Source: Cycas panzhihuaensis
Taxonomy: Eukaryota > Plantae > Cycadophyta
Reading direction: 5' to 3'
Assembly (NCBI GenBank): GCA_023213395.1
Contig: CM041465.1
Span: 121,031,741 to 121,095,740 of the forward strand
Length of the DNA: 64,000 bases
Made by a program: the position numbers and the translations under genes. A model generated the notes under the pieces. It did not search any database. It was given only the letters and a program-made list of their open reading frames with translations, and was not told the DNA's origin. Shown piece by piece: positions 2,162 to 64,000 of this stretch; within the stretch, counting starts at the first letter, position 1, and each line of letters opens with the position of its first letter.

Positions 2162-2299
2162 TGAGGTTTAACAAGTACCACATTCATACATTGATAAATA
2201 AGAGCAGAGATGAAATGAAAATAGATTAACAACATAACTTGGTGCAAAAATCTAGTAGTTTACAACCCTCTTCGAGGCAAGAGCGATTCTCCAACAGGC

Positions 2300-35900: not shown

Positions 35901-38900
35901 CCTTGTTGCCCCTAAAAGACTTCTGATGCTAGTTACATTCTTTGGTGTTGGCCAATTGATGATGGCTTGAATCTTCTTAGGGTTTATCTTAATGTCGTCC
36001 CTTGTGATAATGTGGCCCAAATATTCTAGCTCCTCCTTTCTGAATGTGCACTTCTTTATGTTTGCATAGAACTAATTTTCCTCTAAAATTTGTAGGACTA
36101 TCTTGATGTGCTCTAGATGTTCCTTCCATGTTTTGCTATGTATCAGGATATCATCAAAAAAGACTAATATGAACTTCTGCAAGAATTGTTTGAATATGGA
36201 ATTCATAGTGCTTTGGAATGTTGCCGAAGCATTTGTTAATCCAAAGGGCGTGGACTTGAATTTGATTAATCCCTCATGAGTGTGGAATGTTGTTTTGTAG
36301 ATATGTTCCTTTTTGATACATATTTGATAATATCTAGATTGTAAGTCAATTTTTGAAAAGTATCTAGTTCCATGGATTTCGTCGAGTAAATCATCTATCC
36401 TGGGGATCGAGTAATGATTCTTTATCGTTAGTTTATTTAATACTTGGTAATCTACACACATTCTATACGATCAATCCTTTTTTGGATTTAACACCATTGG
36501 AGATGCGAATGGACTTATACTATTTGAGATCTACCCTTGGAATAGGAGTTCCCGAGTGGTCTTTTCAATTTCTTTCCTAAGATGGTATGGATGCCTGTAT
36601 GGTCGTATGTTCACAGGCGTTTCCCCTAGTACTAATTCAATGGCGTGCTAATAGTCATGTTGTGGAGGAATCCCTTGTGGTTCCTCAAATACTGAGCTGT
36701 GTTCATCTATAATTTCTTGTACTTTTGAAGGTATGTCTTCCACCGCTATTTTGTAGCATGTTAGTATGAATGTTGAAGGATTTTTCTTTAGTATCTTCTC
36801 CATACGATGTGAAGATACTAATTGCACTGAAGGTGTGGTTGGTGCTTGTAGTCTATATTTGCGTTCATTTTGATAGAAACACATAAACTGCGTCATATAA
36901 TTAGTGACTATGTTCTCCAAGGTCTGAAGCCAATGAATGCCTAAGATTGCATCTACTCCTCCAATCAACATTGCAAACATGCACGTGGTTACTGAGTATT
37001 TGCCGATTTGCAATCTTATTGACTTGTAATATCCTCCACATGGTGTTGTTTTCCCATTCGCAATAGAAACTTGGAAAGTGTTTAATGGTTGTATCTCTAA
37101 TCTCAATTTCTCGACTATGGCTCTATTGATAAAATTGTGGGTGCTCACACCATCTACCGATATTGCCATTGGAGTTCCTTTGATCGTTTCTTGAAATCAA
37201 AGAGTTTGAGGAGTGACATGTTGCCCTGTAATTGCCTGTAAAGAGATTTGCACATTCTCTGTATCTACTCCCAGAAGTTTTCAACTCCTTCTGGATTTTG
37301 GTTGTTTTCTTCTCCTTCTTCCCCTTCCGGATTTTCCACGTTCTCATTATTTAAGGTGTTCTTCTTTCGATGTTTCCCTGGTTTCATTTGTATTCCTTAT
37401 TGCTAATGGAGCATCTATTTTTGTTCTTGAATAGGTCCAAATTAGGTTAGTCCCCTAATATTGGTATGTACTTGGTTCATTTTTGCGAATATAAGTGGGT
37501 TTCCCTTCCCTGAAATCTACTTGAATGTTCTTTGCTATCTTAATTACTTCCTGAATAGTTGTTGGATTCATCGATTTGATCTATCTTTTCAGGCTGCTGA
37601 TATAAGTTTCCATAATATATTTTGCTGGAATCCATTCTGAGATTAAACATTAGAGGCTTTGAAACTGTTCTATGTATTCTTGTATCGATCCATGTTGTTG
37701 CAGTCAAGTTAATTGGGCGAAATAGTCGGTGCTCCATGAGTCTTCGTACTGAGTAATTAGACCTACTTTTAGATATTCCCATGTTTTGCATATGCCCATG
37801 TTGGTCTTTCACCACTAGTAGAACCATTTTAATGCTTTCCATATAAGTGGAGAGATGTTATTGATATTTTGTCTTTCTCTGATAGTGCATATACTTGAAA
37901 ATGTCTCCATTTGTAGTAGCCAGCTTTGAATATCTCGTGATCTATTCGGTTCAAATTTTTCTGGTGTGAATTTAGTTCCTTTGAGACCATGGCCTGCTTG
38001 CTTTGTCTTCTGATTCTAACATTCGTAGGCTATCCCATTATATCTTCTTTGATTCCTTTGTTGATTCTCCCCTTGATCACTTTGATCCTAGAATTCTTCA
38101 TCAACTTCTAGAAAGACTCATAGTTTCTCTATCCCTGATGTTTCTTCCTCTTGTGGGTCTAATTTCTTATTGAGGGTATCAATAGAGGCCTAGATGCTTC
38201 TAAGAGAGTTAATGATTTCCTCAAACATTTTGATAAATGTCTATTACTCTTTGTTCCCTGTTTCTTCAACTATTGTTGACTGATGATGCACCATCCTGTT
38301 CTGTTGAAGATTTTTTCTTGATCTCAGCTCCGTTTGGTGTATCAAAGAAGTTCGGACAAAGGGTGGGATGGGCGGGAAGGAATATTTATTTCCCTTTAGG
38401 GGGGAAAAATTTACTTTCCCCCTAGGAAAATTTTTTTAGGATAGCTTCAACGAAGCTCTGATACCACTTGGAGCGATAACTCTCACTCTGTCTTAGAATT
38501 CCTCTTGAAATCCCTTGAAAAATAACAATTATGCTAGGAATTGGTAAAAGATAGTAGCAGTGATTGATCAAAAATATCTCCACAGGTGAGAATACTTCTA
38601 AGGAAAAGATGTACTAAAGATATTAAATGTATAAGCCAGATGGTTGAAATAAACTTCCCTCTTTGAGGTGAGGAAACCTCCAAAAATAGCAGTCCAAAAG
38701 GGTCGAGCTAATTGCAACGCTAAGGCTGAGCAAAAGCTAGGAAACAACTTGTTGAGATATTTGGGAATGAGGCCTTAGAACCCTATATATAGCTGCTTGA
38801 TATTTCCTTAATGAAGTTGGATAGACTAGGTAATTACTGGGAGTTTAGTTTGCATGTAAATCAGCCAGAATACTGGTGTAGAAGTCAGCCAACTGGAGGG

Positions 38901-41900
38901 TGTTTTGGATTACAACACTTGTTGTGTATGATCAAGATGTTGTAGTTCATAATACATGCATGTTTTCATATTTCTTCACATGGTATTGGAGTTGAACGAA
39001 GTACATAGTTGAGGCAAGATTGGGTGAGCGTGATAAGAGCGAAGGCTACTTAGTAACGCAGGTAGAGCCTTGTTCTGTCAATTTTAATCTTCTCCAACAA
39101 CCAGAAGAGTGACACAGTGGTGTAATGGTGATTGAGGAGATGGATTTCAATTATCAATAAGGTTTTCTCACTGTTTGAGGTCAAAAAATCAAAATTGGGC
39201 ATATTTCATACTGTGTTGGGCTCATGTTGGAGCCATTAGATTTGGCTAGGTATGTTGGGCACTCCATAGGCTAGTTGGGCTCAATTTAAAGATGATCTAA
39301 TAGTGTTGGGCTATGTTGGGCATCACTTGGAAGTTATATGACATGATTGGGCATAAGATTTAATACTTGGTTATTAGAAAGGAGTTAGACAGAGCTTGTG
39401 GGAGTGATTGAATCCATTTACGAAGGTTTTCTGCTCTTAAAAAGGGTGTTGGGCAGTTTTAAGGACTAAAATGACACCTTTTTGATGCATGTTGAAGTGT
39501 TGCTCTGATTTGGTGTCGATAGACAACCTTTGATGCCTGTTTCTCACTCATGTGAATTGCTTGAAGATCATAGAAGGCTGTAGACTTGCTTGTAGATGAC
39601 AAGCAAAGCTTGCACTTGTTTTTCCAAGTTTGAGTAGGTCAGTTTAAGCTGTAATAAAGGAGGCATGTAGGAGATGCACCTGCTCGTGGAGGAGACATCA
39701 GATTTTGTGGAGCTGTCGGTCAATGTTTTGAGCCACCACTTCATATTTATCGATTAGTAACCTTAAGACCAAGGTTTAATACATTAATATTCCTTTTAAT
39801 CTTTGTTTTATGACTTTATTTAAGTCACGTGGAGATAAGGAAAGTTGCGTGGGTATAAAGTGGGCAGCCACCACTTTTGGAATATGCCTTTTGGCATATT
39901 GCTTTCTCAATATAAAAAGTGAATATAAATACCATCACATGAAGCCCTTTGATAATTTTCATTGGAATTTTAAAGTGGTTTGACATTCATGTCCAAAATT
40001 CAGACTTAGTTTTATGCTTATACTACTGATTATAGATGTTTTTTTCATTTGAAGCATTTATTTTCAAGTTTTTAAGTGTATTTTGGTGACCCATTAGTGG
40101 TGGGTATAAAAACATTGAAGCCTAGAACCTGTGTGACATAAATCTTGTGTGAAATCAACTGTTGCAATCATTAAATATCACATCTTTGGTAAATTTTGCT
40201 AGAAAGCAGAGATTGAGCAGTGTGTAGGGTGTTGTCTGTGTGACTAAACGTCAAGTAGTTTGGTGAAAAAAAATGTGTTTGTCAGTTTGCTTTTTATAAT
40301 AGAGAGGATGGTTCCTCAAGTTATTTTGAACAGAAATAATTTCAGTGAGTAGAAGGCTAACATGATGTTGGTTTTAATGGTGAATCAACTTTGGGGGATC
40401 ACCAAAGATGAGTTGCTTGTTATTCCGTTGGATGTGAAGGAGCAAACTCATGAAGAGGAGAAGCTATTGGGCTATTAAAATTGTCTTTGGTACTTGGCTA
40501 GAGGGCCATAGTCCACAATCTTGATAAACCAAACAAAATTTGGACAAAATTGTGTGAGATGTTTGAAAAGAAGAAGACAAATCGTCATGTTGCTTTGATG
40601 ATGGAGCTTCTTAATGCGATAGTGGAAGACGAAAGCAACATAAGCGCCTACTAGAATACAATAACTGATTTGAGGAACAAATTAGAATAAATTAAATTAG
40701 GTTTAATTGATGATGCACTGTTGTTTGCATTAGTTATGTCAAAACTATCAGATACATTTGGAATCTTTTAGACCATCTACGCGAGAGATGAAGTAATAGA
40801 GGGTGAATCATTTGAGAAAATGAAAGGTCTCATTCTATCCAAGGATGCCAAGTTGAAGCACCATGGTCTACTCGATGGTTCAGAATCAAATCAAGCCTTG
40901 GTCAGAGATGACGTTTAGGAAGGGAAGTCCACACAAAAGTTAGGAGAAATTTCTTGGAAGAAGAAGTTTGTTGGTAAATGTAATTACTACAAGAAGGATG
41001 GCCACAAAGAGGAGAATTGTTGTTTCAAAGAGCGGGGTAAATGCAAAGTAAGTAAGGATGAGAAAGGAAACCGCGTTGTAGCTTACTGTGTAAAAGAATT
41101 AGTTCTGTCAGCTAAGTCAAATTGGAGAGACTACTAGATTTTGGATTCAAGAGTGGAAAAACACATTTATTTTCAGAAGCAAAACTTTGAAGCATGGAAT
41201 ACTTGTCCTAGTGAAGCTGGAATCGTTCTTGGAGATGTGAGTGCAATGCTTGTTGAGGGCATTGGCATAATTTCTCTTGTGGGAGGAAAACTTAAAGGTG
41301 TGTATTACATACCAAAAATGACGATGAACTTTCTGTCAACCCAAGATATATGCAAACAAGATATGAAGGTTGAGCTCTACAAAGACAAATAGCTAATTAA
41401 GGATCCTAAGAAAAATTTATTTGTTATTGTTATTGGAAAAGTGAGGGATGATTTTTGGGTGTTTGAGAAGTTTCAACCCCATAATAGTTCCCATGCCTTT
41501 GTAGTTGGTGTTGATAATGTGAGCAAACTTTGGTATGAACACCTTGGACGCCTTAATTACAAAAGCATAGCACTTATAAATTGATTGAAAATGGTGGAAG
41601 GATTGCTCCATGTTTCTTGTTTAGAAGGTGTATGTGAAGGGTGCATGTATGAGAAGCATCACTGCTATCTTTTTGCTCGAGATCGTGCCTAGAGAGACAA
41701 GGAGAACCTGGAGCTTGTGCATTCTGATGTGATGGGTCCTCTCTCAAACCTTTCTATATCTGGAGTTCGCTATACTTTAATGTTTGTCGATGATTATACC
41801 AAGAAGGCCTGGGTATATTTTTTGAAGAATAAGTCTGAAGTGTTTGACTACTTTTGTGAATGGAAGGTACATGTCGACAATGAATGTGAAAAGGAAATAA

Positions 41901-45075: not shown

Positions 45076-46366
45076 GTTTGCAGTTTCCTTTACAAAGCTT
45101 CCAAAAAATTTCATCATCTTCATGCAGTACATGCTAGTTGTTATCATTAATGTGTGAAAATCACGCTCATTGTCTTGCTTCTCCAAATGTCATAATCTTG
45201 GCTTACAATATCGTGCTTGATTTTATGCACTATTGTCATTTTCCAAGACACTGTTGCTTAATAGAATTGTTAGGTGTTTTCATTAACACCGCAACACTGC
45301 TATTATCATTACCATAACATAATATGCTTCAGCAATAAGCTTACCCAACTCACAAATGAAAGAGTTTGAGGTAGACAAAGGTATGATAAGTATCATGCAG
45401 GTTGTTAAGAGTTATATACTCTACAATTCATAAGTCACTCGTCTATTTCAGTTTCTGCACATAGAGACTAGACATGTTTCAAGAGTAAGCAAGTATCAAG
45501 ACTCTAATAAATCGTTAAGAGTCATTTTGCATCATATGCAAACAAATAAAGATGAGCAATCTACTCATCAACCACTAGCAAATTGATGAATGCTAGTGTT
45601 CCAGGTTGTAATTCTGCCAAGTCATGTCAAGTCATGTTGTATGACACCATGTTGTGATATATTGTGGTGCACCATGTTGCCTTTAATTGGATATGATTAG
45701 GCTTCCTGTCTTCTCCTTCAACAATTCCCATAGGTCTTTTGTAGAGAATCCGGTGCAAACTGTTCCACATCTGCTCCCAAGGAACGCGATCTACTTGCTG
45801 ATATACGTGAGGATCTGTGAGTTGTCGCATAGCCTCGCCAACGTACCACGACTTGTTGAGAACCACTATGCCAAGGTTTTTGTCTGCAGGCTTGATGATA
45901 ATATTCCTGTCTCGTCGAAGTGAAGACAGGGCCTTCTGAAGTTTAGGCAGGAAAGGACTAGCTTCCTTTCGCAGGGTATCACGAAGCCGCTGGAGTAGAG
46001 TAGCTTTACCAATCCGGATGATTTGCTCGAGAGGGGGATAACGCTTGGGAGGGCTCCAGTTGGGATTGGGAATCCTGAAAGGATCGACTCGCTTCTTATC
46101 ATCTTCCTTGTTGAAGGAATGCCGGAGTCGCAGAAGATGAGCGAAGCTTTCATACTCCTTAGTTACATCCTGTGTGTTCATAGGAGGCGGGCGCGGAATG
46201 AACTTAAGACCGAATCCTAAGAGCTTACTCTCATAATAAGAGAGCCTTCTGTCAGAGAGGTTGTTGATTGCCAAATTTGTGATCCGGCGCTCTATCTGGG
46301 AAGGCAACATCCTGGAGAAAAATACCAAGGCAAAGTAAGCTCTATCAAGGACCGGTCCCCACCTTG

Positions 46367-48367
46367 TTAATCTTGCGCGCGCCTTGGGGTGGCGCTTCTG
46401 CCCCGAGAATGCGGACGAGCTCGAGGACCGCCACCCTGTTGATTCCATTGTGGTTGTTGGAACCACTGCGCTTGCGGCATCTGAGGAGGCTGCTGCTAGA
46501 ATTGGGTCGGCATCCCCTAAGGAACATTCATCGGCTAGAAATTCTGCCAACTCTGCCACGGACCTCGGTGCCTTTGAAGTGCGACGAGGTTGATTTTGTT
46601 GCGACTGCCTTCTTTCTGATGAGGTCGGCCGTGAGGCAGATCGGACAGGCGTCTTCGAACGAGCTCGCGAGTTCGACCTCTGATTTGAGGACGATGGCTG
46701 CGCAGCAGCGGGAGTGGAGCTGCTCCCTGCCCCACTCCCAAGTGGCTCATTTTTTGGACTCTGTTGATTTGCATTGTTGTTCTGTTGCCTGTTAGAGTTC
46801 TTCTTTCTTTTATTGTTCTTTTTGTTCTTTGCCTTCTTCGATTGATTACTGGAAGATGGCGGCGGGATCGATGACAAGCTGTGGAAGCGAGAACCGGACA
46901 AGAGATTTTTGAGGTCTCTGATCTGGGCTTGCAGTGGCGTGCCACGGTTATGATGTTGTTTACCAGTTCGGCAATCGAGGGTTCCACTTGCATAGTATCT
47001 GCATCATTCATTGTTGCATCACGAGCTTCATGTCGCGCGGAGTCAGCGGATTGTCTCAGACTATCGCCAATAGCTTTTTCCATCAGCCATTGGTTACGTT
47101 TGAATTCGAAATCTTCCACGGCTTTATCGAACCAAGCACCTGCAGTAGCTGTAGGAATAGCTGTGCCAAAAAAGTTAACCTGGAAAAGAGAGTTACAAAG
47201 AGTTTCCAGAACTTTCCTGAAGTTGGTGGAACTTTGCGTGATTTCGTCCCGGGCTTTGTCCTTAGCAGTAGCGAGAGAAAGGATATACTGGTCCAGGAAC
47301 TTGCCATTCGCTTCGTTCAGGATCTGCTCGAATGCGGCATGCATTTGCGCTTGCAGGACTTCGTCAGCAACCTTCGTTTTAGGAGGCGAGATCTTGAGAC
47401 TGGAAGGAAACGAACCCACGGCCTTGAGTTCCTGCATCTTGAGCTCCAAACGGGCGGATTTGTCATGCTGCCAAGTTTGCCTTTTAAATTCGGCAAACAC
47501 TTTGGAGACAAGGTTATTAATCTGCGGTGGAAGCGGAGAAGAAGAAGAAGAGGTAGATGGTTGATTAGCATTTGCAGGACGGGAGGAATTGTTAGCGGGA
47601 ACGGAAAAAGAAACTTGCCGAGCAGGAGGGATTGAGAAAGACGGAGGAATCGGTCTGCGATCATTGAGATGCTTTTCTAAATCGGTGCGTTGTTGCTCTG
47701 ACTCGGCGCGCTGTCTTTCAAAATCAGTACGTTGCGTTGCAAACTGTTCATCGAAACTTCCTTTCTGAATGGCTAGCTGCTCGTGGATCCGGCATTCAAA
47801 GTCATTCTATGTGGCCTGCAAACGCTAGCTCTGCGCCTCCTCGGCTTCTTTGCGCTCGATTTCAAGGCGACTGTGATAGGGATGCCTTTCAGTTTAAAGG
47901 GCTGTGACGGTGGACTGCAACATGGTGCGCTCTGCGTTAACTCTGTTAACATCCTCTCTGAGCTGCGATCTTTCTTCATTGAACTTTCTCCGATCTTCGT
48001 TGAACTGGGAACGAATCTCGTTGAATGAAGCGGCATCATCTCTGAGTCTGCGGTTCTCCCTACGAATAACTTCCATACGACCTTTGAACTTTAACCGATA
48101 ACTGCGCGCATAAGTTGCACGAATTTCTTGTAGGGCACGTTTGCGAACTTGTTCAAGTTCTACAGAAAGAATGTCTGGGACTGGAATAATTGCGGAGCCT
48201 GCTTGCTCTTGCGGCAGAACGACTGCTACACATTTTCTGCTGGAAACCTGCTGTGAATCAACAGACATGGATCGGGGGATTCTGTGAACTGGAATCTTGG
48301 TGGGGTTTTCAGCAGGGTTCTGAGAAGGGTTTTGAGAAGGATTCTCAGATGTTGAACTGGAAGTCAT
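46367..48367 (-). pseudogene. ORF1 of arm A, ~666 codons reconstructed (SQNP repeats, coiled coil, helical middle, basic/Ser/Gln-rich tail)
   Basis: ATG at 48367 and TAA at 46367-46369 are in one frame. The ORF is broken by C>T/G>A nonsense changes and compensating indels. The ORF-track pieces of 157 aa and 321 aa are parts of it. Confidence 0.75.
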
Positions 48368-48588
48368 TTTGAGGCAACGACTGAAACAAGATTTTAGGTT
48401 CTAAAACTGGATATAACTCAAGCGTGCAGCAGAAAAAGACTTAAGGTTCAAGAAATAAACTTAACCAAAAACAAGTGTAGCAGATATGGGAGAAACTTAA
48501 AAGAAATTAACTAAACTATTATTAGTACATGCAAAAAGAGCTAGGACATGAAAATACGACAACTTATCTTTATAAACTTGGAAAGGGA

Positions 48589-48627
48589 ATCCGAACGCGT
48601 TTCGCTCTTATGAGCTCATCAACGGAC
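48589..48627 (-). ncRNA. Minimal type I hammerhead ribozyme motif (U3 variant), arm A
   Basis: Minus strand reads GUCCG-UUGAUGA-GCUC(AUAA)GAGC-GAAAC-GC-GUU-CGGAU: stem I, core, stem II, GAAA and a palindromic mini-stem III. Confidence 0.8.
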
Positions 48628-48926
48628 ATGGATCTCCAAGTATAAAAGATGAGAATATATAGGCCTCAAGGTAATCGGGTGCCTTGCGCGGTAAGATTGC
48701 GCGGAAATCATGCCGATACCGAGGACCAATCAAATCCTAGCAAATGGGCGGGCAGATTAATAACCTTGCAGCAACTTTATTTGGGTAGCTGGATGCAGCA
48801 ACCTGAATGGGTTGCTCTGCATCAGGCCGAAATCTGCTCCTCATCAAGAAAGTACCGAGTTTCCTTGGATTTCTCCAACAAATCATAGCCCTCGGAATAT
48901 GCCTCAAGTCAGGGTCTTCTTGGCAA

Positions 48927-48997
48927 AGCCCAAAAAGTTTAGGGTTTAAGCTCACGCGTAAACTGGGAGTAGTCCTAAACCCTAAACTTTTTGGGCT
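48927..48997. promoter_or_regulatory. Palindrome axis 1: inverted telomere repeats/telo-boxes and site II motifs around a 27-nt loop
   Basis: AGCCCA-AAAAG-TTTAGGGTTTA [loop 48949-48975] TAAACCCTAAA-CTTTT-TGGGCT. Function is inferred. Confidence 0.6.
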
Positions 48998-49515
48998 TTG
49001 CCAAGAAGACCCCGACTTGAGGCATATTCCAAGGGCTATGATCTGTTCGAGAATCAAGCTCTGTGCTTGATGAGGAGCAGCGGCACGATCTTGAGCAACC
49101 GAGTTGCTACGGATCTAGTTCGATCGATGGTGCCGGAACAAATTAATCTGCCGCCCATATGCTAGGATTGATCGCCTTGTCGGCATGATTCTCACGCAAT
49201 CTTACGTGCAAGGCTGCCGACTGAGGTCTATATTCTTAGCCTGAGTAATTGGAGATCCATGTCCCCGGATGAGCTCATAAGCGGCAGCGTTCAGATTTCC
49301 TTTCCAAGTTTATAAAGATAAGTTGTTTTATTTTCATGTCCTAGCTCTTTTTGCATGTATTAATAATCGTTTAGTTAATTTCTTTTAAGTTTCTCCCATA
49401 TCTGCTACACTTGTTTTTGGTCAAGTTTATTTCTTGAACCTTAAGTCTTTTTCTGCACTTCGAAAGTTATATCCAGTTTTAGAACCTAAAATCTTGTTTC
49501 AGTCGTTGCCTCAAA

Positions 49516-51437
49516 ATGACTTCCGATTCAACATCTGAGAATCCTTCTCAAAACCCTTCTCAAAACCCTTCTCAGAACCCTGCTGAAAACCTTGTCGAGA
49601 ATCCAGTTCGCAGAATCCCCCGGTCCATGTCTGTTGATTCACACCAGGTTTTCAGCAGAAAACGTGTAGCAGTCGTTCCGCCGCCAGAGCAAGCAAGTTC
49701 CGCAATCATTCTAGTCTCAGACGTTCCTTCTGTAGAACTTGAATAAGTTCGCAAATGTGTCCAACAGGAAATTCACGCAACTTATGCGCAGGTTATCGAA
49801 GCCGAAGTTCATTGCCGCGCGGAAGTTATTCTTAGGGAGAACCGCAGATTCAGAGATGATGCCACTTCATTCAACGAGATTCGTTCCCAGTTCAACGAAG
49901 ATCGGAGAAAGTTCAATGAAGAAAGATCGCAGCTCAGAGAGGATGTTAACAGAGCTAACGCAGAGCGCACCATGTTGCGATCACCATCGCGACCGCTTCA
50001 AACCGAAGGATTGCTATCGTGGTCGCTGAAATCGGCACAAGCGGGAGGCGTGAGCTAGCGTTCGCGTTCTGAAATGACTTTGAGCGACGGATCCACGGTA
50101 ACAAGCCATTGAAGGCGATGCGACGGCGACTTGCAGCGCAGCGTGTTGATTTTGAAGGCGGCTCAAGTCGGGCGAGCCGCCAATTTGGAAAGCGTCTCAA
50201 TGATCGCGGGCCATTCCTCCGTCTTTCGATCCTCTGCTCGCAAGTTTCTTTCCATTCTGCTAACAATTCCTCCCGTCTGCGAATCTTGATCAACCATCTA
50301 CCTCTTCTTCTTCTTCTCTACTTCCACCGCATATTAATAACCTTGTTTCAGCGTTTGCGGTCAAAAATCAAACTTGGCGGCGCCAGCGGTTCGCCGTTTG
50401 GGCTCGAGGATGTAGGAACTCAGGCGTGGTCGTTCCTTCCGATCTCAGATCTCGCCTCTAAAGCGATGGTTGACGAAGTCTGGCTCAGATGCATGCCTCA
50501 TTCGGCGGATCTGAACAGCGAATGGCAAGTTCTGGACCAAGATATCCTTTCTACCGTATGACAAAGCCCGGGACGAAATCACTCAAAGTTCCACCGACCT
50601 CAGGGATGTTTTGCAAACTCTTTGTAACTCTCTTTCCCACGTTAACTTTATTGGCACAACTATTCCTATAGCTACTGCTAGTGCTTGGTTCGATAAAGCC
50701 GTGGAAGATTCGGTCAAATGAACCAATGGTGATGGAAAAGCCATCGACGATGCGAGACAATCTGTTGACTCAGCGCGACAGGAAACTCGTGACGCAACAA
50801 TGAATGATGTAGATACTATGCAAGCGGAACCCTCGATTGCCGAACTGGTAAACAATACTGTTAACCAGAAGTATGCCGCTCTGCAAGCCCAGATCAGAGA
50901 CCTCAAAAATCTCTTGTCCGGTTCTGTTTGCATTGTCATCGATCTGCCGCCATCTTCGATGTCGATCAAAGAAGAAGAAGAAGAAGAAAAAGAACAATAA
51001 AAGAAAGGAGAACTCTAACAGGCAACATAACAGCAATGCAAATCAACAGAGTCCAAAAATCGGGCCGGCAGGGAGTGGGCGGGCGGCCCACTCCCGTGCT
51101 GCGACCATCGTCCTCAGATCAGAGGTCGAACTCGCGAGCTTGTTCGAAGACGCCTGCTCGATCTGCCTCACAGCCGCCCTCAGGAGAAAGAAGGCAGCTG
51201 CGACAAAATCAACCTCGTCGCAACTTTCAAAGGCGTCGAGGTCCATGGCAGAGTTGGCAGAATTTCAAGCCAATGAATGTTCCTTGGGGGATGCCGACCC
51301 AATTCTGGCAGCAGTGTCCTCAAATGCCGCAGGCGCAGTGGTTCCAATAACCACAATGGAATCAGCAGGGTGGCGGTCCTCGAGCTCGTCCGCATTCTCG
51401 GGGCAGAAGCGCCACCCCAACGCGTGTGCAAGATTAA
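49516..51437 (+). pseudogene. ORF1 of arm B (many indels)
   Basis: MTSDSTSENPSQNP start; collinear with arm A ORF1. Confidence 0.7.
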
Positions 51438-52519
51438 CAAGGTGGAGACCGGTCCTTGACAGAGCTTACTTTGCCTTGGTATTTTTCTCCAGGATGTCAC
51501 CTTCCCAGATAGAGCGCTGGATCACAAATTTGGCAATCCACAACCTCTCTGACAGAAGGCTCTCTTATTATGAGAGTAAGCTCTTAGGATTCGGTCTTAA
51601 GTTCATTACGCGCCCGCCTCCTATGAACACACAGGATGTAATTAAGGAGTATGAAAGCTTCGCTCGTCTTCTCCGACTCTGTCATTTCTTCGGCAAGGAA
51701 GATGATAAGAAGCGAGTCGATCCTTTTAGGATTCCCAATCCCAATTGGAACCCTCCCAGGCGTTATCTGCCTCTTGAGTGGATCATCCGGATTAGTAAAG
51801 CTACCTGCAAAAGGAAGCTAGTCCTTTCCTGCCTAAACTTCAGAAGGCGTTGTCTTCACTTCAAGCCTGCAGTCAAAAACCTTGGCACAGTGGTTCTCAA
51901 CAAGTCGTGGTACGTTGGCGAGGCTATGCGACAACTCACAGATCCTCAGTTATATTAGCAAGTAGATCGCGTTCCTTAGGAGCAGATGTGGAACAGTTTG
52001 CACTGGATTCTCTACAGGTTTTCCTCCATTTTGGGTTCCAGAATGAAGTTCCTGTTAAAGAACCCCCCTGACTCTGCCCTCCCTTGCGCCTTCTACTTGC
52101 TTCCAAAAATCCATAAACCTGTTCTTGCTGGGCGTCCCATTTGTGGTTATTGTAATTACCCCCTTGAGCCTACGTCCAAATTTCTTCATTACATGATCTT
52201 GCAAGTTCTGCTAAAGCGGAAAAACCACTTGCCCGTTTCCATTTCACTCCTGAAATCCCTGGCTAACTTCAAACTCCCATTGAATGTCTTGTTATTTACC
52301 TTTGATGTTGAGTCATTATACCCTAGCATTCCTACTTCTGAAGGTCTTGCTGCCCTTAGAGATATGTTGGGTGATTATTTTGTTGGGGATCTTCGGATGA
52401 TTAACTGCCTTGTCGACCTTGCTGAACTTGTTCTCAAGGAACACTACCTTGAGTTCAATGGTTTATTCTTCAAACAAGTTCGAGGCACTGCTATGGGTAG
52501 TAATTTTGCTATTGTCTAT
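51245..52519 (+). pseudogene. Penelope-like RT ORF of arm B (partial)
   Basis: RT N-terminus through motif B', with stops and a deletion. Confidence 0.85.
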
Positions 52520-53741
52520 CATTAATGCGTGAAAATCATGCTCATTGTCTTGCTTCTCCAAATGTCATAATCTTGGCTTACAATATCGTGCTTGATTTTA
52601 TGCACTATTGTCATTTTCCAAGACACTGTTGCTTAATAGAATTGTTTGGTTTTTTCATTAATACCACAACACTGCTATTATCATTACCATAACATAATAT
52701 GCTTTAGCAATAAGCTTACCCAACTCACAAATGAAAGAGTTTGAGGTAGACAAAGGTATGATAAGTATCATGCAGGTTGTTAAGAGTTATATACTCTACA
52801 ATTCAAAAGTCACTCGTCTCTTTCAATTTCTGCACATGGAGACTAGACATGTTTCAAGAGTAAGCAAGTATCAAGACTCTAATAAATGATTAAGAGTCAT
52901 TTTGCATCATATGCAAACAAATAAATATGAGTAATCTACTCATCAACCACTAGCAAATTGATGAATGCTAGTGTTCCAGGTTGTAATTCTGCCAAGTCAT
53001 GTCGAGTCATGTTGTATGACACCATGTTGTGATATATTGTGGTGCACCATGTTGCCTTTGATTGGATATGATTAGGCTTCCTGTCTTCTCCTTCAACAAC
53101 TCGCATAGGTCTTCTGTAGAGAATCCGGTGCAAACTGTTCCACATCTGCTCCCAAGGAATGCAATCTACTTGCTGATATACCTGAGGATCTGTGAGTTGT
53201 CGCATAGCCTCGCCAATGTACCACGACTTGTTGAGAACCACTGTGCCAAGGTTTTTGTCTGCAAGCTTGATGATAATATTCCTGTCTCATCGAAGTGAAG
53301 GCAGGGCCTTCTAAAGTTTAGGCAGGAAAGGACTAGCTTCCTTTCGCAGGGTATCACGAGGTCGTTGGAGTAGAGTAGCTTTACTGATCCAGATGAACCG
53401 CTCGAGAGGGGGATAATGCCTGGGAGGGTTCCAGTTGGGATTGGGAATGCTGAAAGGATCGACTCGCTTCTTATCATCTTTCTTGCCGAAGAAATGCCGG
53501 AGTCGGAGAAGACGAGCGAAGCTTTCATACTCCTTAATTACATCCTGTGTGTTCACAGGAGGCAGGCGCGAAATGAACTTACGACCGAATCCTAAGGGCT
53601 TACTCTCATAATAAGAGAGCCTTCTGTCAGAGAGGTTGTTGATTGCCAAATTTGTGATTCGGCGCTCTATCTGGGAAGGCAACATCCTGGAGAAAAATAC
53701 CAAGGCAAAGTAAGCTCTGTCAAGAACCGGTCCCCACCTTG

Positions 53742-55716
53742 TTAATCTTGCGCGCGCCTTGGGGTGGCGCTTCTGCCCTGAGAATGCGGACGAGCTCGAG
53801 GACCGCCACCCTGCTGATTCCATTATGGTTGTTGGAACCACTGCGCTTGCGGCGTCTGAGGAGGCTACTGCCAGAATTGGGTCGGCATCCCCCAAGGAAC
53901 ATTCATCTACTGGAAATTCTGCCAACTCTGCCATGGACTTTGGCGCCTTTAAAAGTTGCGACGAGGTTGGTTTTGTTGCGACTGCCTTCTTTCTGATGAG
54001 GCGGTAGTGAGGCGGTCAGGCGGGCGTGTTGAGCAGGCTCGCGAGTTCGACCTCTGATCTGAGGACGATGGCTGCGCAACAACGGGAGTGGAGCTGCTCC
54101 CTGCCCCACTCCCAAGCGGCTCGTCTTTTGGACTCTGTTGATTTGCATTGCTGTTCTGTTGCCTGTTAGAGTTCTCCTTTCTTTTATTGTTGTTTTTCTT
54201 CTTCTTCTTCTTCGACTGATTATTGGAAGATGGCGAAGCAGGATCGATGATAATTTGTGCAAGCGAGCCAGGACAAGAGATTTTGAGGTCTACGATGCGG
54301 GCTTGCGGCGGCATACTTTACTTGATGTTGTTTACCAGTTCGGCAATCGAGGGTTCCGCTTGCATAGTATCTGCATCATTCATTGTTGCGTCACGAGCGT
54401 CCTGTCGCGCGGAGTCAACGGATTGTCTCAGACTGTCTCCGATAGCTTTTTCCATCAGCCATTGGTTACATTTGAATTCGAAATCTTCCACGGCTTTATC
54501 GAACCAAGCACCTGCAGTAGCTATAGGAATAGTTGTGCCAATAAAGTTAACGTGGGAAAGAGAGTTACAAAGAGTTTCCAAAACTTCCCTGAAGTTGGTG
54601 GAACTTTGCGTGATTTCGTCCCGGGCTTTGTCCTTAGCAGCAGCGAGAGAAAGGATATACTGGTCCAGGAACTTGCCATTCGCTTCGTTCTGGATCTGCT
54701 CAGATGCGGCATGCATCTGAGCTTGCAGGACTTCGTCAACAACCATCGTTTTAGGAGGCGAGATCTTGAGACTGGAAGGAAACGAACCCACGGCCTTGAG
54801 TTCCCGCATCCTGAGCTCCAAACGGGCGGATCTGTCATGCTGCCAAGTTTGCCTTTTAAATTCGGCAAACACATTGGAGACAAGGTTATTAATCTGCAGT
54901 GGAAGTGGAGAAGAAGAATAAGAGGTAGATGGTTGATTAGCATTTGCAGGACGGGAGGAATTGTTAGCAAGAATGGAAAAAGAAACTTGCGGAGCAGGAG
55001 GGACTGAGAAAGACGGAGGAATCGGTCTGCGATCATTAAGATGCTTTTCCAAATCGGCACGTTGTCGCTCTGTCCCGACGCCCTGTCTTTCAAAATCAGC
55101 ACGTTGCGTTGCAAGCTGTTCATCGAAACTGCCTTTCTGAATGGCTAGCTGCTCGTGGAAATTCATTCTATATGTCCTGCAAATGCTAGCTCTGCGCCTC
55201 CTCGGCTTCTTTGCGCTCGATTTCAAGGCGACTGCGATAGCGATCTCTTTCAGTTTAAAGGGCTGCGACGGTGGATTGCAACATGGTGCGCTCTGCATTA
55301 ACTCTGTTAACATCCTCTCTGAGCTACGATCTTTCTTCATTGAAGTTTCTCCGATCTTCGTTGAACTGGGAACGGATCTCGTTGAATGAAGCGGCATTAT
55401 CTCTGAGTCTGCGGTTCTCCCTAAGAATAACTTTTGCGCGGTACTGAACTTCGGCTTCAATAACCTGTGCATAAGTTGCGCGAATTTCCTGTCGGGCACG
55501 TTCGCGAACTTGTTCAAGTTCTACAGAAGGAATGTCTGGGACTGGAATGATTGCGGAGCCTGCTTGCTCTGGCGGCGGAACGACTGCTACACGTTTTCTG
55601 CTGGAAACTTGCTGTGAATCAACAGACATGGACCGGGGGATTCTGCGAACTGGAATCTCGACAAGGTTTTCAGAAGGGTTTTGAGAAGGATTCTCAGATG
55701 TTGAATCGGAAGTCAT
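53742..55716 (-). pseudogene. ORF1 of arm C
   Basis: ORF-track pieces of 130, 399 and 121 aa are collinear with arm A ORF1. Confidence 0.75.
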
Positions 55717-55937
55717 TTTGAGGCAACGACTGAAACAAGATTTTAGGTTCTAAAACTGGATATAACTCGAGCGTGCAGCAGAAAAAGACTTAAGGTTCAA
55801 GAAATAAACTTGACCAAAAACAAGTGTAGCAGATATGGGAGAAACTTAAAAGAAATTAACTAAACGATTATTAATACATGCAAAAAGAGCTAGGACATGA
55901 AAATAAAACAACTTATCTTTATAAACTTGGAAAGGAA

Positions 55938-55976
55938 ATCCGAACGCGTTTCGCTCTTATGAGCTCATCAACGGAC
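55938..55976 (-). ncRNA. Minimal type I hammerhead ribozyme motif, arm C
   Basis: Same sequence as the arm A motif. Confidence 0.8.
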
Positions 55977-56258
55977 ATGGATCTCCAAGTACAAAAGATG
56001 AGAATATATAGACCTCAAGGTAATCGGGTGCCTTGCGCGATAAGATTGCGCGGGAATCAAATCCTAGCAAATGGGCGGGCAAATTAATAACCTTATCTGG
56101 CAACCTGACTGGACTGAACTGGATCTGCAACAACCTGAATGGGTTGCTCTGCATCAGGCCAAAATCTGCTCCTCATCAAGAAAGTATCGAGTTTCCTTGG
56201 ATTTCTCCAACAAATCATAGCCCTCGGAATATGCCTCAAGTCGGGGTCTTCTTGGCAA

Positions 56259-56329
56259 AGCCCAAAAAGTTTAGGGTTTAAGCTCATGCATAAACTGGGA
56301 GTAGTCCTAAACCCTAAACTTTTTGGGCT
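56259..56329. promoter_or_regulatory. Palindrome axis 2 (same structure; loop 56281-56307)
   Basis: Differs from axis 1 only by CpG decay in the loop (CACGCGT to CATGCAT). Confidence 0.6.
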
Positions 56330-56873
56330 TTGCCAAGAAGACCCCGACTTGAGGCATATTTCGAGGGCTATGATTTGTTGGAGAAATCCAAGGAAACTCG
56401 GTACTTTCTTGATGAGGAGCAGATTTTGGCCTGATGGAGAGCAACCCATCGGTCTTCTGATCGATTCGATCGATCGGTACCAGATAATGTCTGCCTGCCC
56501 ATTTGCTAGGATTTGATTGGCCCTCGGTATCGGCATGATTCCTGCGCAATCTTACCGCGCAAGGCATTCGATTACCTTGAGGTCTATATATTCTCATCTT
56601 TTGTACTTGGAGATCCATGTCGACGATGAGCCCGTAAGCGAAGCGGCTCGATTTCCTTTCCAAGTTTATAAAGATAAGTTGTTTTATTTTCATGTCCTAG
56701 CTCTTTTTGCATGTATTAATAATCGTTTAGTTAATTTCTTTTAAGTTTCTCCCATATTTGCTACACTTTTTTTTGGTTAACTTTATTTCTTGAACCTTAA
56801 GTCTTTTTCTACTGCACGCTTGAGTTATATCCAGTTTTAGAACCTAAAATCTTGTTTCAGTCATTGCCTCAAA

Positions 56874-58779
56874 ATGACCTCCGGTTTAACATCTGAGAAT
56901 CCTTCTCAAAACCCTGTTGAAAACCCTGTCGAGATTCGATTCGCGAATCCCGATCCATGTCGTTGATTCACGGCGGGTTTCGGTGAGAAACGTGTAGCGA
57001 TGCTGCCGCGAGCAAGTTCCGCAATCATTCCAGTCCCAGACATTCCTTCTGTAGAACCTGAACAAGTTCGGCGGCGTGCCCGGCATTCGCACAACTTATC
57101 GCGGGTTATCGGCCGAGATTGATCTGCGTCGAAGTTATTCTTAGGGAGAACGCGGTTCGATGATGCTTCATTCAACGAGATTCGTTCGATTCAACGGATC
57201 GAGAAAGTTCAATGAAGAAAGATCGCGACAGAGAGGATGTTAACGAGTTAACGAGCGCACCATGTTGCGATCACCGTCGCGACCTTCAAACTGCGGTATC
57301 GCTATCGCAATCGCCTTGAAATCGAGCACAAAGAAGCCGAGGAGGCGCAGAGCTAGCATTTGCAGGCCATACAGAATGACTTTGAACGCCAGATCCATGA
57401 GCAACTAGCCATTCAGAAAGGCAGTTGTGATGAGCAGCTTGCAACGCAACGTCTTGGTGAGCGACGCGCCGGTCGGGGCGTCAATGTGCCGATTTGGAAA
57501 AGCGTCTCAATGATCGCAGACCGATTCCTTCGTCTTTGTCAGTCCCTCGTGCTCCGCAAGTTTCTTTTTCCATTCCTGCTAACAATTCCTCCCGTCCTGC
57601 AGATGCTGATCAACCATCTACCTCTTCTTCTTCTTCTCCGCTTCCATTGCAGATTAATAACCTTGTCTCCAAAGCGTTTGCCGAATTCAAAAGGCAAACT
57701 TGGCGACATGATGATCCGCCGTTTGGCTCGAGATGCGGAACCGGCGTGGGTTCGTTCCTTCGATCTCAAGATCTCGCCTCCTAAAACGATGGTTGTTGAC
57801 GAAGTCTTGCTGGTAAATGCATGTCGCGTGGCGGATCGGCAGCGAATGGCAAGTTCCTGGACCAGTGTACCCTTTCTCTCGCTGCTGCTAAGGACAAAGC
57901 CAGGGACGAAATCACGCAAAATTCCACCAACTTCAGGGAAGTTTTGGAAACTCTTTGTAACTCTCTTTCCCACGTTAACTTTATTGGCACAACTATTCCT
58001 ATAGCTACTGCAGGTGCTTGGTTCGATAAAGCTATGGAAGATTTTGAATTCAAATGTAACCAATGGCTGATGGGAAACACTATTGGAGCGATGCGAGACA
58101 ATCGACTGGCGGCGACAGAAGCTCGTGACGCAACAATGAATGATGCTGATACTATGCAAGCGGAACCCTCGATTGCGGCCTGTAAACAATCGTTTAACCA
58201 GAAGTATGCCGCTCTGCAAGCCCAGATCAGAGACCTCAAAAATCTCTTGTCCGGTTCTGTTTGCACAGCTGTCACTGATCCTGCTTCGCCATCTTCCAGT
58301 AATCAGTCGAAGAAGAAGAAGAAGAAGAAAAAGAACAATAAAAGAAAGGAGAACTCTAACAGGCAACATAACAGCAATGCAAATCAACAGAGTCCAAAAA
58401 TCGGGCTGCTTGGGAGTGGGGCAGGGAGCGGCTCCACTCCCGCTGCTGCGCAGCCATCGTCCTCAGATCAGAGGTCGAACTCGCGAGCTCGTTCGAAGAC
58501 GCCTGCTCGATCTGCCTCACAGCCGCCCTTAGGAGAAAGAAGGCAGCCGCAACAAATTCAACCTCATCGCAACTTTCAGAGGCGTCGAGGTCCATGGCAG
58601 AGTTGGCAGAATTTCCAGCCGATGAATGTTCCTTGGGGGATGCCGACCCAATTGGCGGCGACTCCTCGGATGTCGCGCGATGGTTCCAATAACCACAATG
58701 GAATCAGCAGGGTGGCGGTCCTCGAGCTCGTCCGCATTCTCAGGGCAGAAGCACCACCCCAAGGCGCGTGCAAGATTAA
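56874..58779 (+). pseudogene. ORF1 of arm D
   Basis: ATG at 56874; the 326-aa ORF-track piece covers the C-terminal half. Confidence 0.7.
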
Positions 58780-60110
58780 CAAGGTGGGGATCGGTCCTTG
58801 ACAGAGCTTACTTCGCCTTGGTATTTTTGTCCAGGATGTCGCCTTCCCAGATAGAGCGCCGGATCACAAATTTGGCAATCCACAACCTCTCTGACAGAAG
58901 GCTCTCTTATTATGAGAGTAAGCTCTTAGGATTCAGTCTTAAGTTCATTCTGCGCCCGCTTGCTATGAACACACAGGATGTAATTAAGGAGTATGAAAGC
59001 TTCGCTCGTCTTCTCCAACTCCGTCATTTCTTCGGCAAGGAAGATGATCAGAAGCGAGTCGATCCCTTCAGGATTGCCAATCCCAATTGGAACCCTCCTA
59101 GGCGTTATCCCCCTCTCGAGCAGATCATCCGGATTGGTAAAGCTACTCTACTTTAGCGGCTTGGTGATACCCTGCGAAAGGAAGCTAGTCCTTTCCCGCC
59201 TAAACTTCAAAAGGCCCTGTCTTCACTTCGACGAAATAGGAATATTATCATCAAGCCTACAGACAAAAACCTTGGCACAGTGGTTCTCAAGAAGTCATGG
59301 TACGTTGGCGAGGCTATGCGACAACTCATAGATCCTCAGTTATATCAGCAAGTAGATCGTGTTCCTTGGGAGCAGATGTGGAATAGTTTGCACCGGATTC
59401 TCTACAGGTTTTCTTCCATTTTGGGTTCCAGAATGAAGTTCCTGTTAAAGAACCCACCTGACTGTGCCCTCCCCTGCGCGTTCTACTTGCTTCCAAAAAT
59501 CCATAAACCTGTTCTTGCTGGGCGTCCCATTTGTGGTTATTGTAATTACCCCCTTGAGCTTGCCTCCAAATTTCTTCATTACATGATCTTGCAAGTTCTG
59601 CTAAAGCAGAAAAACCACTTGCCCGATTCCATTTCACTACTGAAATCCTTGCCTAACTTCAAACTCCCATTGAATGTCTTGTTATTTACCTTTGATGTTG
59701 AGTCATTATACCCTAGCATTCCTACTTCTGAAGGTCTTGCTGCCCTTAGAGATATGTTGGGTGATTATTTTGTTGGGGATCTTCGGATGATTAACTGCCT
59801 TGTCGACCTTGCTGAACTTGTTCTCAAGGAACACTACCTTGAGTTCAATGGTTTATTCTTCAAACAAGTTCGAGGCACTGCTATGGGTAGTAATTTTGTT
59901 GTTGTCTATGCTTGCCTGTTTCTTTGTCATCTTGAAAAAATTGTAGAAAACAAGCTCGGCCTTTCTCAACTTCTCTTCTATAAGAGGTTTATTGATGATG
60001 CTTTTGGAGTTTGGAACGGTTCACATTCAGATCTTCAGGTCTTCTTTGATGCCTACTAGCAGGTTTATCCTAACAACATTAGGATTACTCCAGTTGTCTC
60101 CAATTCACAG
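58594..60110 (+). pseudogene. Penelope-like (TERT-related) RT ORF of arm D (partial)
   Basis: Motifs A (FDVESLYPSI), B' (GTAMGS) and C (RFIDD), with TAG stops at 59154 and 60057. Start codon is either 58594 or 58836. Confidence 0.9.
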
Positions 60111-60890
60111 ACATTTTAAGAAGTCTGTAATTAAGAAATGAAGGAGAAAAAGTACTTTAAATCACCGCAAGTATGAGTGCCACATCACTAAGTGACCGCA
60201 AGGTGAATTACACTTAAAAGAGTACAAATAAAAAGGTTTAAAAAGACCTTTAACATACATTATTTAAAGAGGAATAAGTACATTAAAAGATCCTCTTAAA
60301 GTGCTTCAAAAGAGGACTAAGTACTTTAAAATCTCCCCTTTAAAACTACTCTCAAAGTACATTGAAAAATCATTTTAAAATAGAGTCAAAGTATAACTCT
60401 AAAGAGGATTAAGTACATGAGAAAATACACATGAAATACTCTTTTATTGAAGCCAAGAAATACCCTTTAAAAGAAGATAAAATGAAGCTTGAAAGCTTAT
60501 AGTGTTCATAAGGTTTTATACCCTTTTACACCACCAAAAAATGTACCTTGAGAAAGAGGATTAAGAGATAAAAATCCCCTTGAGAGAAGACAAAATAACA
60601 AGGTAAAAGGTTTAATGTCTTCTTGAGGTACTTTTGTATGAAGCCAATAAAGGTGCATTTATGCCACCAAAAGATGTACCTTAATGAAGAGAATAAAATG
60701 TATTAAAAATTCCTCTTAAGGTACTTTACATATCCGCCAAAAGATGCTTTACAAAAGAGGATGATCCACATGAAAAACTCCTCTCAAAACATCATTATGC
60801 CACCAATAACATCTCCTTAAAAAAGAGGTCAAAGTGCAGAGAAGAACTCCTCTTTAAGTACTTTTTATGTCACGATGATGAAATACACTT

Positions 60891-63800: not shown

Positions 63801-64000
63801 GTGGAGTTCAAAGTGACACAGGCGTTCTTTGGAGGCGTTGGTTAGACCAAATGGCATCACTTTGAATTGAGCAGTCCCTCATGAGTTATGAATCTTTGTC
63901 TTGTGGGCGTCCCCTCTTTTACCCGAATTTGATGGTAACCCGATCGAGAGGTCTATCTTGGAAGTATTGCACTCCATGTATTTCGTCTAGTAGGTCATCG
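60891..64000 (-). mobile_element. Chromovirus (Ty3/Gypsy) 3' part: 3' LTR 60891-61511, chromodomain, integrase, RNase H, RT; continues beyond the window
   Basis: LTR ends TGTAGC...GCTACA; PPT 61514-61525. Peptides VGDWVFLRLQPY, HGFPKAIVSDRD, SASYHPRTDGQTE, MPFGLTNA, LECDA. Confidence 0.92.

What the first reader, a model, noticed from the sequence alone, without database searches (positions are those of the whole stretch)
48927..48997. Telomere repeats close the hairpin exactly at the symmetry axis
Seen: GTTTAGGGTTTAAG on the left and (CCTAAAC)2 on the right of the loop, repeated at 56259-56329. Each arm's sense strand therefore begins with C-rich plant telomere sequence. Known: endonuclease-deficient Penelope-like elements (Athena, Coprina and relatives) have a 5' coiled-coil ORF, carry short reverse-complement telomere repeats and attach to chromosome ends. 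Their RT is the closest relative of TERT. Inference: this may be a telomere-targeting family here stranded inside an intron. The ~2-repeat tract could be an annealing or priming site resembling a telomerase RNA template. Alternative: AAACCCTAA next to TGGGCT is the telo-box/site II promoter module of plant genes active in dividing cells, so the axis may be a bidirectional promoter.
Basis: partly seen in the sequence, partly recalled or inferred. Interest (0 to 1): 0.8.

Follow-up and report, generated by a model that had tools for sequence, protein, structure and literature searches.

The report
Telomere repeat inside retroelement polymerase codons
The hairpin is the centre of a decayed back-to-back copy of an endonuclease-less Penelope-like plant retroelement whose telomere-like letters double as codons near the end of its reverse transcriptase gene, and the hairpin likely formed when a new DNA copy folded back on itself at that spot, which may normally serve as a seed for telomere capping.

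Summary
Observation confirmed, anatomy corrected. The repeats are real, but the four tracts are one motif, copied by an inversion and a 7.4-kb tandem duplication. The arms do not begin with the element's 5' end. They begin with its pseudo-LTR, the last ~45 reverse transcriptase (RT) codons, and the tract is the codons L-N-P-K. A relative with ~51% RT identity has the same four telomeric codons (p~0.004). LNP occurs in 13 of 31 clade RTs, including every named plant protein that reaches this position. Further along each arm follow a TATA box, a hammerhead motif, ORF1 and a truncated RT. No endonuclease is present. Related loci carry C-rich telomere words on the sense strand in 34 of 65 cases, against 2 G-rich. 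The loop is itself RT code with a 17-nt gap, which fits fold-back of an antisense strand. The surroundings are Copia/Gypsy debris; no host exon was found, so 'intron' is unsupported. Endonuclease-less Penelope-like elements are already reported in Selaginella and conifers. The tract inside RT codons, upstream of the ribozyme, was not in the papers I could read; three primary papers were unavailable.

The parts
45740..48948 (-). Left arm of palindrome 1: pseudo-LTR, ORF1 and N-terminal third of RT, 3'-truncated at 45740
48937..48948 (-). 12-nt telomere tract of the left arm (G-rich on +)
48949..48975 (.). 27-nt loop. The minus strand reads RT codons D-Y-S-Q-F-T-R-E-L-N, then a 17-nt gap into the tract; on the plus strand the last 12 nt read L-G-V-V
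   Evidence: translation; loose ends; alignment
48974..48987 (+). 14-nt telomere tract of the right arm; codons L-N-P-K at 48975-48986
48830..48964 (-). RT C-terminal tail (about 45 codons) in the left pseudo-LTR; no endonuclease follows
   Evidence: 62% to P0002 residues 578-622
48655..48661 (-). TATA box 39 nt upstream of the hammerhead core (predicted promoter)
48571..48640 (-). Type I hammerhead-like motif with palindromic helix III; U instead of C at core position 3
   Evidence: HH9, E 0.025, below gathering score
46535..48367 (-). ORF1 in two frameshifted pieces, with a short S-Q-N-P repeat and a coiled-coil-like stretch
   Evidence: weak helical-hairpin and coiled-coil hits below cut-off; matches Ginkgo gene models
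45744..46331 (-). RT residues ~2-207, truncated
48976..52519 (+). Right arm of palindrome 1: pseudo-LTR, degraded ORF1, RT to residue ~379, cut by the duplication junction
52507..59909 (+). Second copy of the tandem duplication (first copy 45132-52519), including ~600 nt of flank
53114..56280 (-). Left arm of palindrome 2, with TATA at 56004-56010 and hammerhead at 55920-55989
   Evidence: (E 0.0032)
56269..56319 (.). Second copy of the tract-loop-tract junction; the loop differs from copy 1 by two CpG-type transitions
56308..60113 (+). Right arm of palindrome 2; RT 58815-60113 with core motifs, 3'-truncated at residue ~446 of 626

Best explanation
The hairpin is the centre of a decayed head-to-head copy of an endonuclease-less Penelope-like retroelement, whose telomere tract is the L-N-P-K codons near the end of its RT gene; it likely formed when an antisense (G-rich) DNA copy ended just past this tract and folded back to prime its own copying. 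SHOWN: each arm reads outward as RT tail with tract, TATA box, hammerhead motif, ORF1, RT. The loop is RT code with a 17-nt gap. The palindrome predates a tandem duplication, and both outer ends are 3'-truncated. INFERRED: (1) cDNA made from a multimeric or read-through RNA ran through the upstream pseudo-LTR and stopped about 12 codons past the tract. (2) Its 3' end paired with the 12-nt inverted repeat and TTAG-type microhomology beside the tract, and was extended. (3) A 17-nt central deletion widened the spacer. (4) Later deletions trimmed both outer ends. The tract is likely kept at the DNA level as a telomere-joining handle, most likely a seed at which a cDNA end can be capped by telomerase; here the end would have folded back instead. 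Confidence: about 0.95 for identity, 0.7 for fold-back, 0.5 for the telomere-handle role; the number below is for the chain as a whole.
For: Identity: the top hits are endonuclease-less RTs from Cryptomeria (54-57%), Ginkgo, Selaginella and Closterium. The model of P0002 has TERT as its top three fold matches. Tract as codons. Same four codons in L003, where only 52 of 137 identical core residues share codons, product 0.0035. LNP in 13 of 31 clade RTs that reach the site, and absent from a sister group with intact frames. The proline sits inside a predicted helix, 579-592. Loop: 47 contigs from organisms A-C continue upstream of 56305-56307 with RT code reading F-T-K-E-L-N-L-G-A-T, matching the minus strand of the loop. 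Real palindrome: 59 columns split left vs right arms against 9 that split copy 1 vs copy 2, and 44 of the 59 are transitions. Telomere link of the clade: C-rich 12-mers on the sense strand in 34 of 65 loci against G-rich in 2. In L007 a 5'-truncated RT tail starts at the equivalent RT position directly behind G-rich repeats. Literature: head-to-head junction palindromes of Penelope are read as self-priming, and endonuclease-less copies receive telomeric repeats at the truncated 5' end (PMC3846280, passages).
Against: The junction is one event; its coincidence with the tract has a chance of roughly 1-7% (my arithmetic). No contig bridged the junction, and none of the 24 loose-end rows shown (95 in all) was a (CCCTAAA)n cap; the consensus upstream of the tract is RT code. 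L058 has a head-to-head inversion inside RT with no telomere repeat at its axis, so fold-back does not need the tract. DNA conservation of the tract rests on one distant locus, L003. Most of the 65 loci share one accession block and belong to the sister group that lacks LNP, so the strand bias is neither independent nor specific to this subfamily. The native sequence of this exact subfamily is not in hand, so the 12-nt stem may be a product of the junction. No telomere array lies in the window.
Confidence: 0.55

Rival explanations
1. The tract is the internal annealing and priming site: the chromosome's G-rich overhang pairs with it in the RNA and primes reverse transcription there.
For: Orientation fits, and the tract lies within ~370 nt of the predicted RNA 3' end at the next hammerhead. 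Athena/Terminons use such repeats (PMC6431247, passages). A Poseidon element initiates internally at an AC-rich stem-loop (PMC11167929, parts 1-2 of 4).
Against: It predicts copies whose RT ends ...LNPKP*; 0 of 268 proteins do, though clustering could hide them. In the window the tract marks the 5' boundary of the arms, not their 3' ends.
Confidence: 0.2
2. The tract is a telo-box acting as an upstream element of the pseudo-LTR promoter, and the axis is a two-way promoter.
For: AAACCCTA and TGGGCT (48992-48997) are adjacent. A TATA box lies ~290 nt downstream in each arm. Telo-box/site II pairs mark Pol II promoters (PMC3022908, abstract).
Against: Both motifs are RT codons. Site II is not kept in L003 while the tract is. 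The sister group keeps the TATA-hammerhead unit without the tract. Two-way transcription would follow trivially from the inversion. No host gene was found.
Confidence: 0.12
3. L-N-P is kept for the protein alone; the telomere match and its place at the axis are coincidence, and this is an ordinary inverted Penelope insertion.
For: The telomere frame T-L-N-P-K is only partly kept: K in 5 and T in 7 of 13 LNP proteins. Inverted 5' junctions are common in Penelope-like elements (PMC8557442, passages). L058 is inverted without a tract.
Against: Codon identity with L003; LNP is absent from 18 of 31 clade RTs; the proline lies in a predicted helix.
Confidence: 0.1
4. The palindrome is a long-read fold-back or assembly artefact.
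For: The right arms are noisier (200 and 142 private changes against 91 and 65; 71 gaps between right arms against 13 between left arms). No contig bridged the junction.
Against: The same junction occurs in two copies whose flanks differ by 3.2%. Arm differences are shared across the duplication, 59 to 9. The loop carries a clean 17-nt gap.
Confidence: 0.03

Closest known systems
Endonuclease-deficient Penelope-like elements of the Coprina type (Selaginella Sm1/Sm2; EN(-) elements listed for Pinus taeda and Picea abies in PMC9033089)
   Same: TERT-like RT without GIY-YIG, upstream ORF, pseudo-LTR with type I hammerhead, C-rich telomere repeat on the sense strand; a Selaginella RT (P0016) lies in the same well-supported 25-row clade.
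   Different: The tract is inside RT codons, upstream of the ribozyme. This copy is head-to-head, uncapped and embedded in LTR debris. PMC3846280 says fungal and protist EN(-) elements do not share the inverted organisation. Whether P0016 is Sm1 or Sm2 was not checked.
Athena / Terminon elements of bdelloid rotifers
   Same: No endonuclease in the RT, coiled-coil ORFs, hammerhead plus short reverse-complement telomere repeat.
   Different: There the repeat lies immediately downstream of the hammerhead (PMC6431247); here it is 309-326 nt upstream. The unit is ~4 kb, not up to 40 kb.
Canonical EN(+) Penelope/Poseidon elements, including conifer Dryads
   Same: Partial tandem with an inverted copy and a junction palindrome attributed to self-priming.
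   Different: No GIY-YIG here; endonuclease-bearing hits fall outside the clade; no target-site duplication seen.
Plant telo-box / site II promoter module
   Same: AAACCCTA next to TGGGCT.
   Different: Coding sequence of a retroelement, no host gene, site II not conserved in L003.

Membership tests
Penelope-like elements | RT related to telomerase RT | tested here: met
   Window RT is 57% identical to P0002; the P0002 model has TERT as its top three Foldseek hits, E 5.6e-9 to 1.1e-8, with LINE-1 ORF2p fourth. A sequence search of PDB found nothing.
Penelope-like elements | Pseudo-LTR formed by a 5'-truncated upstream copy | tested here: met
   RT residues 578-626 precede ORF1 in all four arms.
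Penelope-like elements | Hammerhead motif in the pseudo-LTR | tested here: met
   HH9 matches below gathering score in both left arms; the same architecture in 43 cores of related loci, helix III palindromic in 29 of 29 distinct cores. Cleavage untested; window copies have U3 and the right-arm copies are degraded.
Endonuclease-deficient PLE (Coprina/Athena type) | No GIY-YIG endonuclease | tested here: met
   None of the top 35 hits carries PF01541; 7 close relatives lack it while control P0036 has it; the element's own RT tail is followed by the TATA-hammerhead unit.
Endonuclease-deficient PLE (Coprina/Athena type) | Short reverse-complement telomere repeat on the sense strand | tested here: met
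Endonuclease-deficient PLE (Coprina/Athena type) | Repeat immediately downstream of the hammerhead (Athena/Terminon arrangement) | tested here: not met
   309 and 326 nt upstream in the window, 379 nt upstream in L003.
Endonuclease-deficient PLE (Coprina/Athena type) | This copy lies at a chromosome end or is capped by telomere repeats | tested here: not met
   No telomere array in the window; flanks are LTR debris.
Endonuclease-deficient PLE (Coprina/Athena type) | Family is enriched at host telomeres | not testable with these tools
   No genome held. Indirect: strand bias in related loci; 7 of 8 named Cryptomeria cluster members lie on contigs of 15-53 kb.
Endonuclease-deficient PLE (Coprina/Athena type) | 5' ORF with coiled coil | tested here: inconclusive
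   ORF1 is present; helical-hairpin and coiled-coil Pfam hits are below cut-off; only a crude heptad score was run.
Coprina clade | RT groups with reference Coprina elements | not tested
   No named Coprina reference was available; the tree shows only grouping with Selaginella, Ginkgo, Cryptomeria and Picea-cluster RTs.
Dryads / EN(+) Penelope-Poseidon | C-terminal GIY-YIG domain | tested here: not met
Telo-box / site II promoter | Both motifs present together | tested here: met
   AAACCCTA in the tract and TGGGCT at 48992-48997.
Telo-box / site II promoter | In the 5' region of a host gene and conserved as a pair | tested here: not met
   No host gene by Pfam; site II absent in L003.

The most novel reading that the evidence does not exclude
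A land-plant lineage of endonuclease-less Penelope-like elements, from Selaginella to Ginkgo and conifers, has written a telomerase seed into its RT codons. cDNA that stops there is either capped into a new chromosome end or folds back into a palindrome, so the elements both extend telomeres and start inverted duplications that end up inside chromosomes. A sister lineage has moved the repeats behind the ribozyme and into ORF1.
Probability: 0.35. Interest if true: 0.75.

Novelty: new variant of a known kind. Interest (0 to 1): 0.47.

Why it matters
How endonuclease-less Penelope-like elements start, stop and join their cDNA is an open question bearing on the origin of telomerase. A telomere tract held inside RT codons can be tested by synonymous recoding, which separates RNA/DNA function from protein function. 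Intact 626-aa copies exist in Cryptomeria, annotated as uncharacterized proteins. The conserved TATA-hammerhead unit also predicts the transcript ends. The window copy itself is a dead, internal remnant.

Tried and rejected
No host genome is held, so telomere enrichment and copy number were not tested. No RNA holder was listed; this says nothing about expression. Contig depth was higher over the pseudo-LTR than over the body, but the tool warns that depth is no copy number, so I did not use it. In one search no variant was listed at 56306-56329 while later third positions vary; I gave this little weight because 41 rows were hidden and alignment edges are clipped. Pfam did not recognise the window RT and PDB sequence search found nothing. 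Viral contigs held no relative. Rfam microRNA hits at the axis only reflect the palindrome. Earlier scan notes held nothing. The protein Atlas gave no answer for ORF1. One search had a faulty pattern and was redone. Folding the L003 tail put the tract in a small local stem, in a different register from the window, so a conserved hairpin is not shown. Gladyshev and Arkhipova 2007, Arkhipova 2017 and Lin 2016 are not held; they or their supplements may already describe the tract in Selaginella or conifer copies. A search of the PMC8557442 supplement for Sm1, Sm2, telomer, Ginkgo and Picea found no occurrence.

Full report
OBSERVATION. The tracts and the 27-nt loop are present at both places. TTTAGGGTTT occurs 5 times against 0.20 expected. 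Four of the five descend from one motif: a ~6.3-kb palindrome (45740-52016) sits inside a segment duplicated in tandem, 45132-52519 and 52507-59909.

WHAT THE ARMS ARE. Each arm encodes a frameshifted ORF1 and an RT. The 300-aa RT piece at 59157 found 228 longer relatives; the best are Cryptomeria (54-57%), unnamed 600-626 aa proteins, Ginkgo, Selaginella and Closterium, and none of the top 35 carries GIY-YIG. A fresh Pfam scan found GIY-YIG in control P0036 and in none of 7 close relatives. In a tree of 55 selected rows the window RT sits in a 25-row clade (100/99), nearest to Cryptomeria and Ginkgo rows; endonuclease-bearing rows lie outside. A model of P0002 (mean pLDDT 82) has TERT as its top three fold matches. 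The host is therefore probably a large-genome seed plant of gymnosperm type; this is inference.

THE TRACT IS CODING. P0002 residues 578-626 align across the axis in all four arms, so the arms start with the last ~45 RT codons, which is the pseudo-LTR. The tract is the codons L-N-P-K, and T-L-N-P-K is one reading frame of (CCCTAAA)n. Of 36 chosen clade proteins, 31 reach this site and 13 have LNP, among them all those named or clustered as Cryptomeria, Ginkgo, Picea and Selaginella. The proline lies inside predicted helix 579-592. Locus L003 (51% to P0002) has the same four codons as the window, while only 52 of 137 identical core residues share codons; the product for L, N, P and K is 0.0035. 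This is a single comparison.

REST OF THE PSEUDO-LTR. Rfam finds HH9-like hammerheads below the gathering score in both left arms. The same motif occurs as 43 cores in related loci. All have C3, where the two window copies have U3, which is likely methylation decay (inference). A TATA-like box lies 36-53 nt before the core in 27 of 29 distinct cores, against 4.9% at random positions. The predicted promoter is thus ~290 nt inside each arm, facing outward.

TELOMERE LINK OF THE CLADE. With RT on the plus strand, 34 of 65 loci carry C-rich telomere 12-mers and 2 carry G-rich ones. L040, L041 and L049 have (CCCTAAA)n arrays at a contig end. Repeats lie downstream of the hammerhead for 19 of 43 cores and upstream for 1, L003. 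Most loci share one accession block and belong to the sister group without LNP, so they are not independent evidence for this subfamily.

THE JUNCTION. Contigs of organisms A-C that match from 56305-56307 (47 in the rows shown) continue upstream with RT code, F-T-K-E-L-N-L-G-A-T. The loop's minus strand reads D-Y-S-Q-F-T-R-E-L-N and then jumps 17 nt into the tract; relatives have K-L-D-Y-S at this place. The plus strand is therefore antisense DNA that runs through the tract and about 12 codons further, then turns and continues as sense DNA from the tract. That is the footprint expected from fold-back priming followed by a small central deletion (inference). No contig bridged the junction and no telomere cap appeared in the 24 of 95 loose-end rows shown. 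The palindrome predates the duplication: 59 columns separate left from right arms and 9 separate the copies. The right arms are much noisier, which may be sequencing error. For: L007 has a truncated RT tail starting at the equivalent position behind G-rich repeats. Against: L058 is inverted inside RT with no repeat at the axis.

CONTEXT. Thirty-nine ORFs of at least 110 aa left of the element gave Copia and Gypsy domains, two weak unrelated hits (E 0.004 and 0.01) or nothing; a Gypsy piece lies to the right. The left flank is a very high-depth repeat. Short exons of a gene with giant introns cannot be excluded. Both outer ends are 3'-truncated with no telomere repeats or target duplication, so the original insertion site is lost.

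ROLE OF THE TRACT. I favour a telomere seed at the cDNA end, because the tract marks the 5' boundary of the arms and endonuclease-less copies are reported to receive telomeric repeats at the truncated 5' end (PMC3846280). Internal priming predicts proteins ending LNPKP; 0 of 268 did. A telo-box role and protein-only conservation remain open. None of these was tested experimentally.

LITERATURE. Passages were read in PMC8557442 (supplement list and search), PMC4209133, PMC6431247, PMC11539532, PMC10088271, PMC3846280, PMC13159263, PMC5537684, PMC12477314 and PMC9033089. PMC11167929 was read in parts 1-2 of 4 and PMC3022908 as abstract and outline. EN(-) elements are already listed for Selaginella, Pinus and Picea, and hammerheads for the Selaginella ones. 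Searches, and these passages, showed no description of a tract inside RT codons or of a head-to-head EN(-) plant copy. The three primary papers were not held, so this absence is weak.

VERDICT. A real feature of a known class of element, with a corrected anatomy and one apparently undescribed trait that is easy to test. Interest 0.47.

Noticed in passing
L007:1435-1460: A 5'-truncated RT tail begins at the position equivalent to the window's loop, directly behind ~2.5 G-rich telomere repeats that follow unrelated DNA.
   Followed up: partly
L061:2625-2672: Behind the RT end, G-rich repeats abut C-rich repeats, like an end-to-end telomere fusion scar.
   Followed up: partly
L030:5101-5160 (similar runs in L017, L018, L038): Ten tandem CCCTAA units lie about 1.3 kb behind the hammerhead and appear to read as an N-P repeat in the next ORF1. 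The window's ORF1 has a 12-nt S-Q-N-P repeat at its start (48303-48349, 49543-49591) that may be a decayed equivalent.
   Followed up: no
L058:989-2438: Head-to-head inversion of a related element with its axis inside RT and no telomere repeat.
   Followed up: partly
L001-L053 and window 48655-48661: A TATA box sits at a fixed short distance before the hammerhead, so the ribozyme is predicted at the very 5' end of the transcript as well as at its 3' end in tandem arrays.
   Followed up: partly
P0145, P0002 cluster: A Picea glauca protein annotated as a mitochondrial gene (KUM45112.1) and several Cryptomeria RefSeq 'uncharacterized proteins' are RTs of this family.
   Followed up: no
window 48976-52016 and 56308-59407: Both right arms have garbled patches and many more indels than the left arms, suggesting sequencing error in the second arm of hairpins.
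   Followed up: partly
window 33461-38917: Decayed Gypsy-type element with 450-nt terminal repeats 89% identical; a related internal region recurs at 61497-63999.
   Followed up: no
window 1645-5233: Nested inverted and direct repeats (1989-2469 self-inverted; 2297-2535 / 4655-4895 at 99%) around Copia-type fragments.
   Followed up: no
L048:1218: Hammerhead on the strand opposite to the RT match, suggesting a tail-to-tail arrangement.
   Followed up: no
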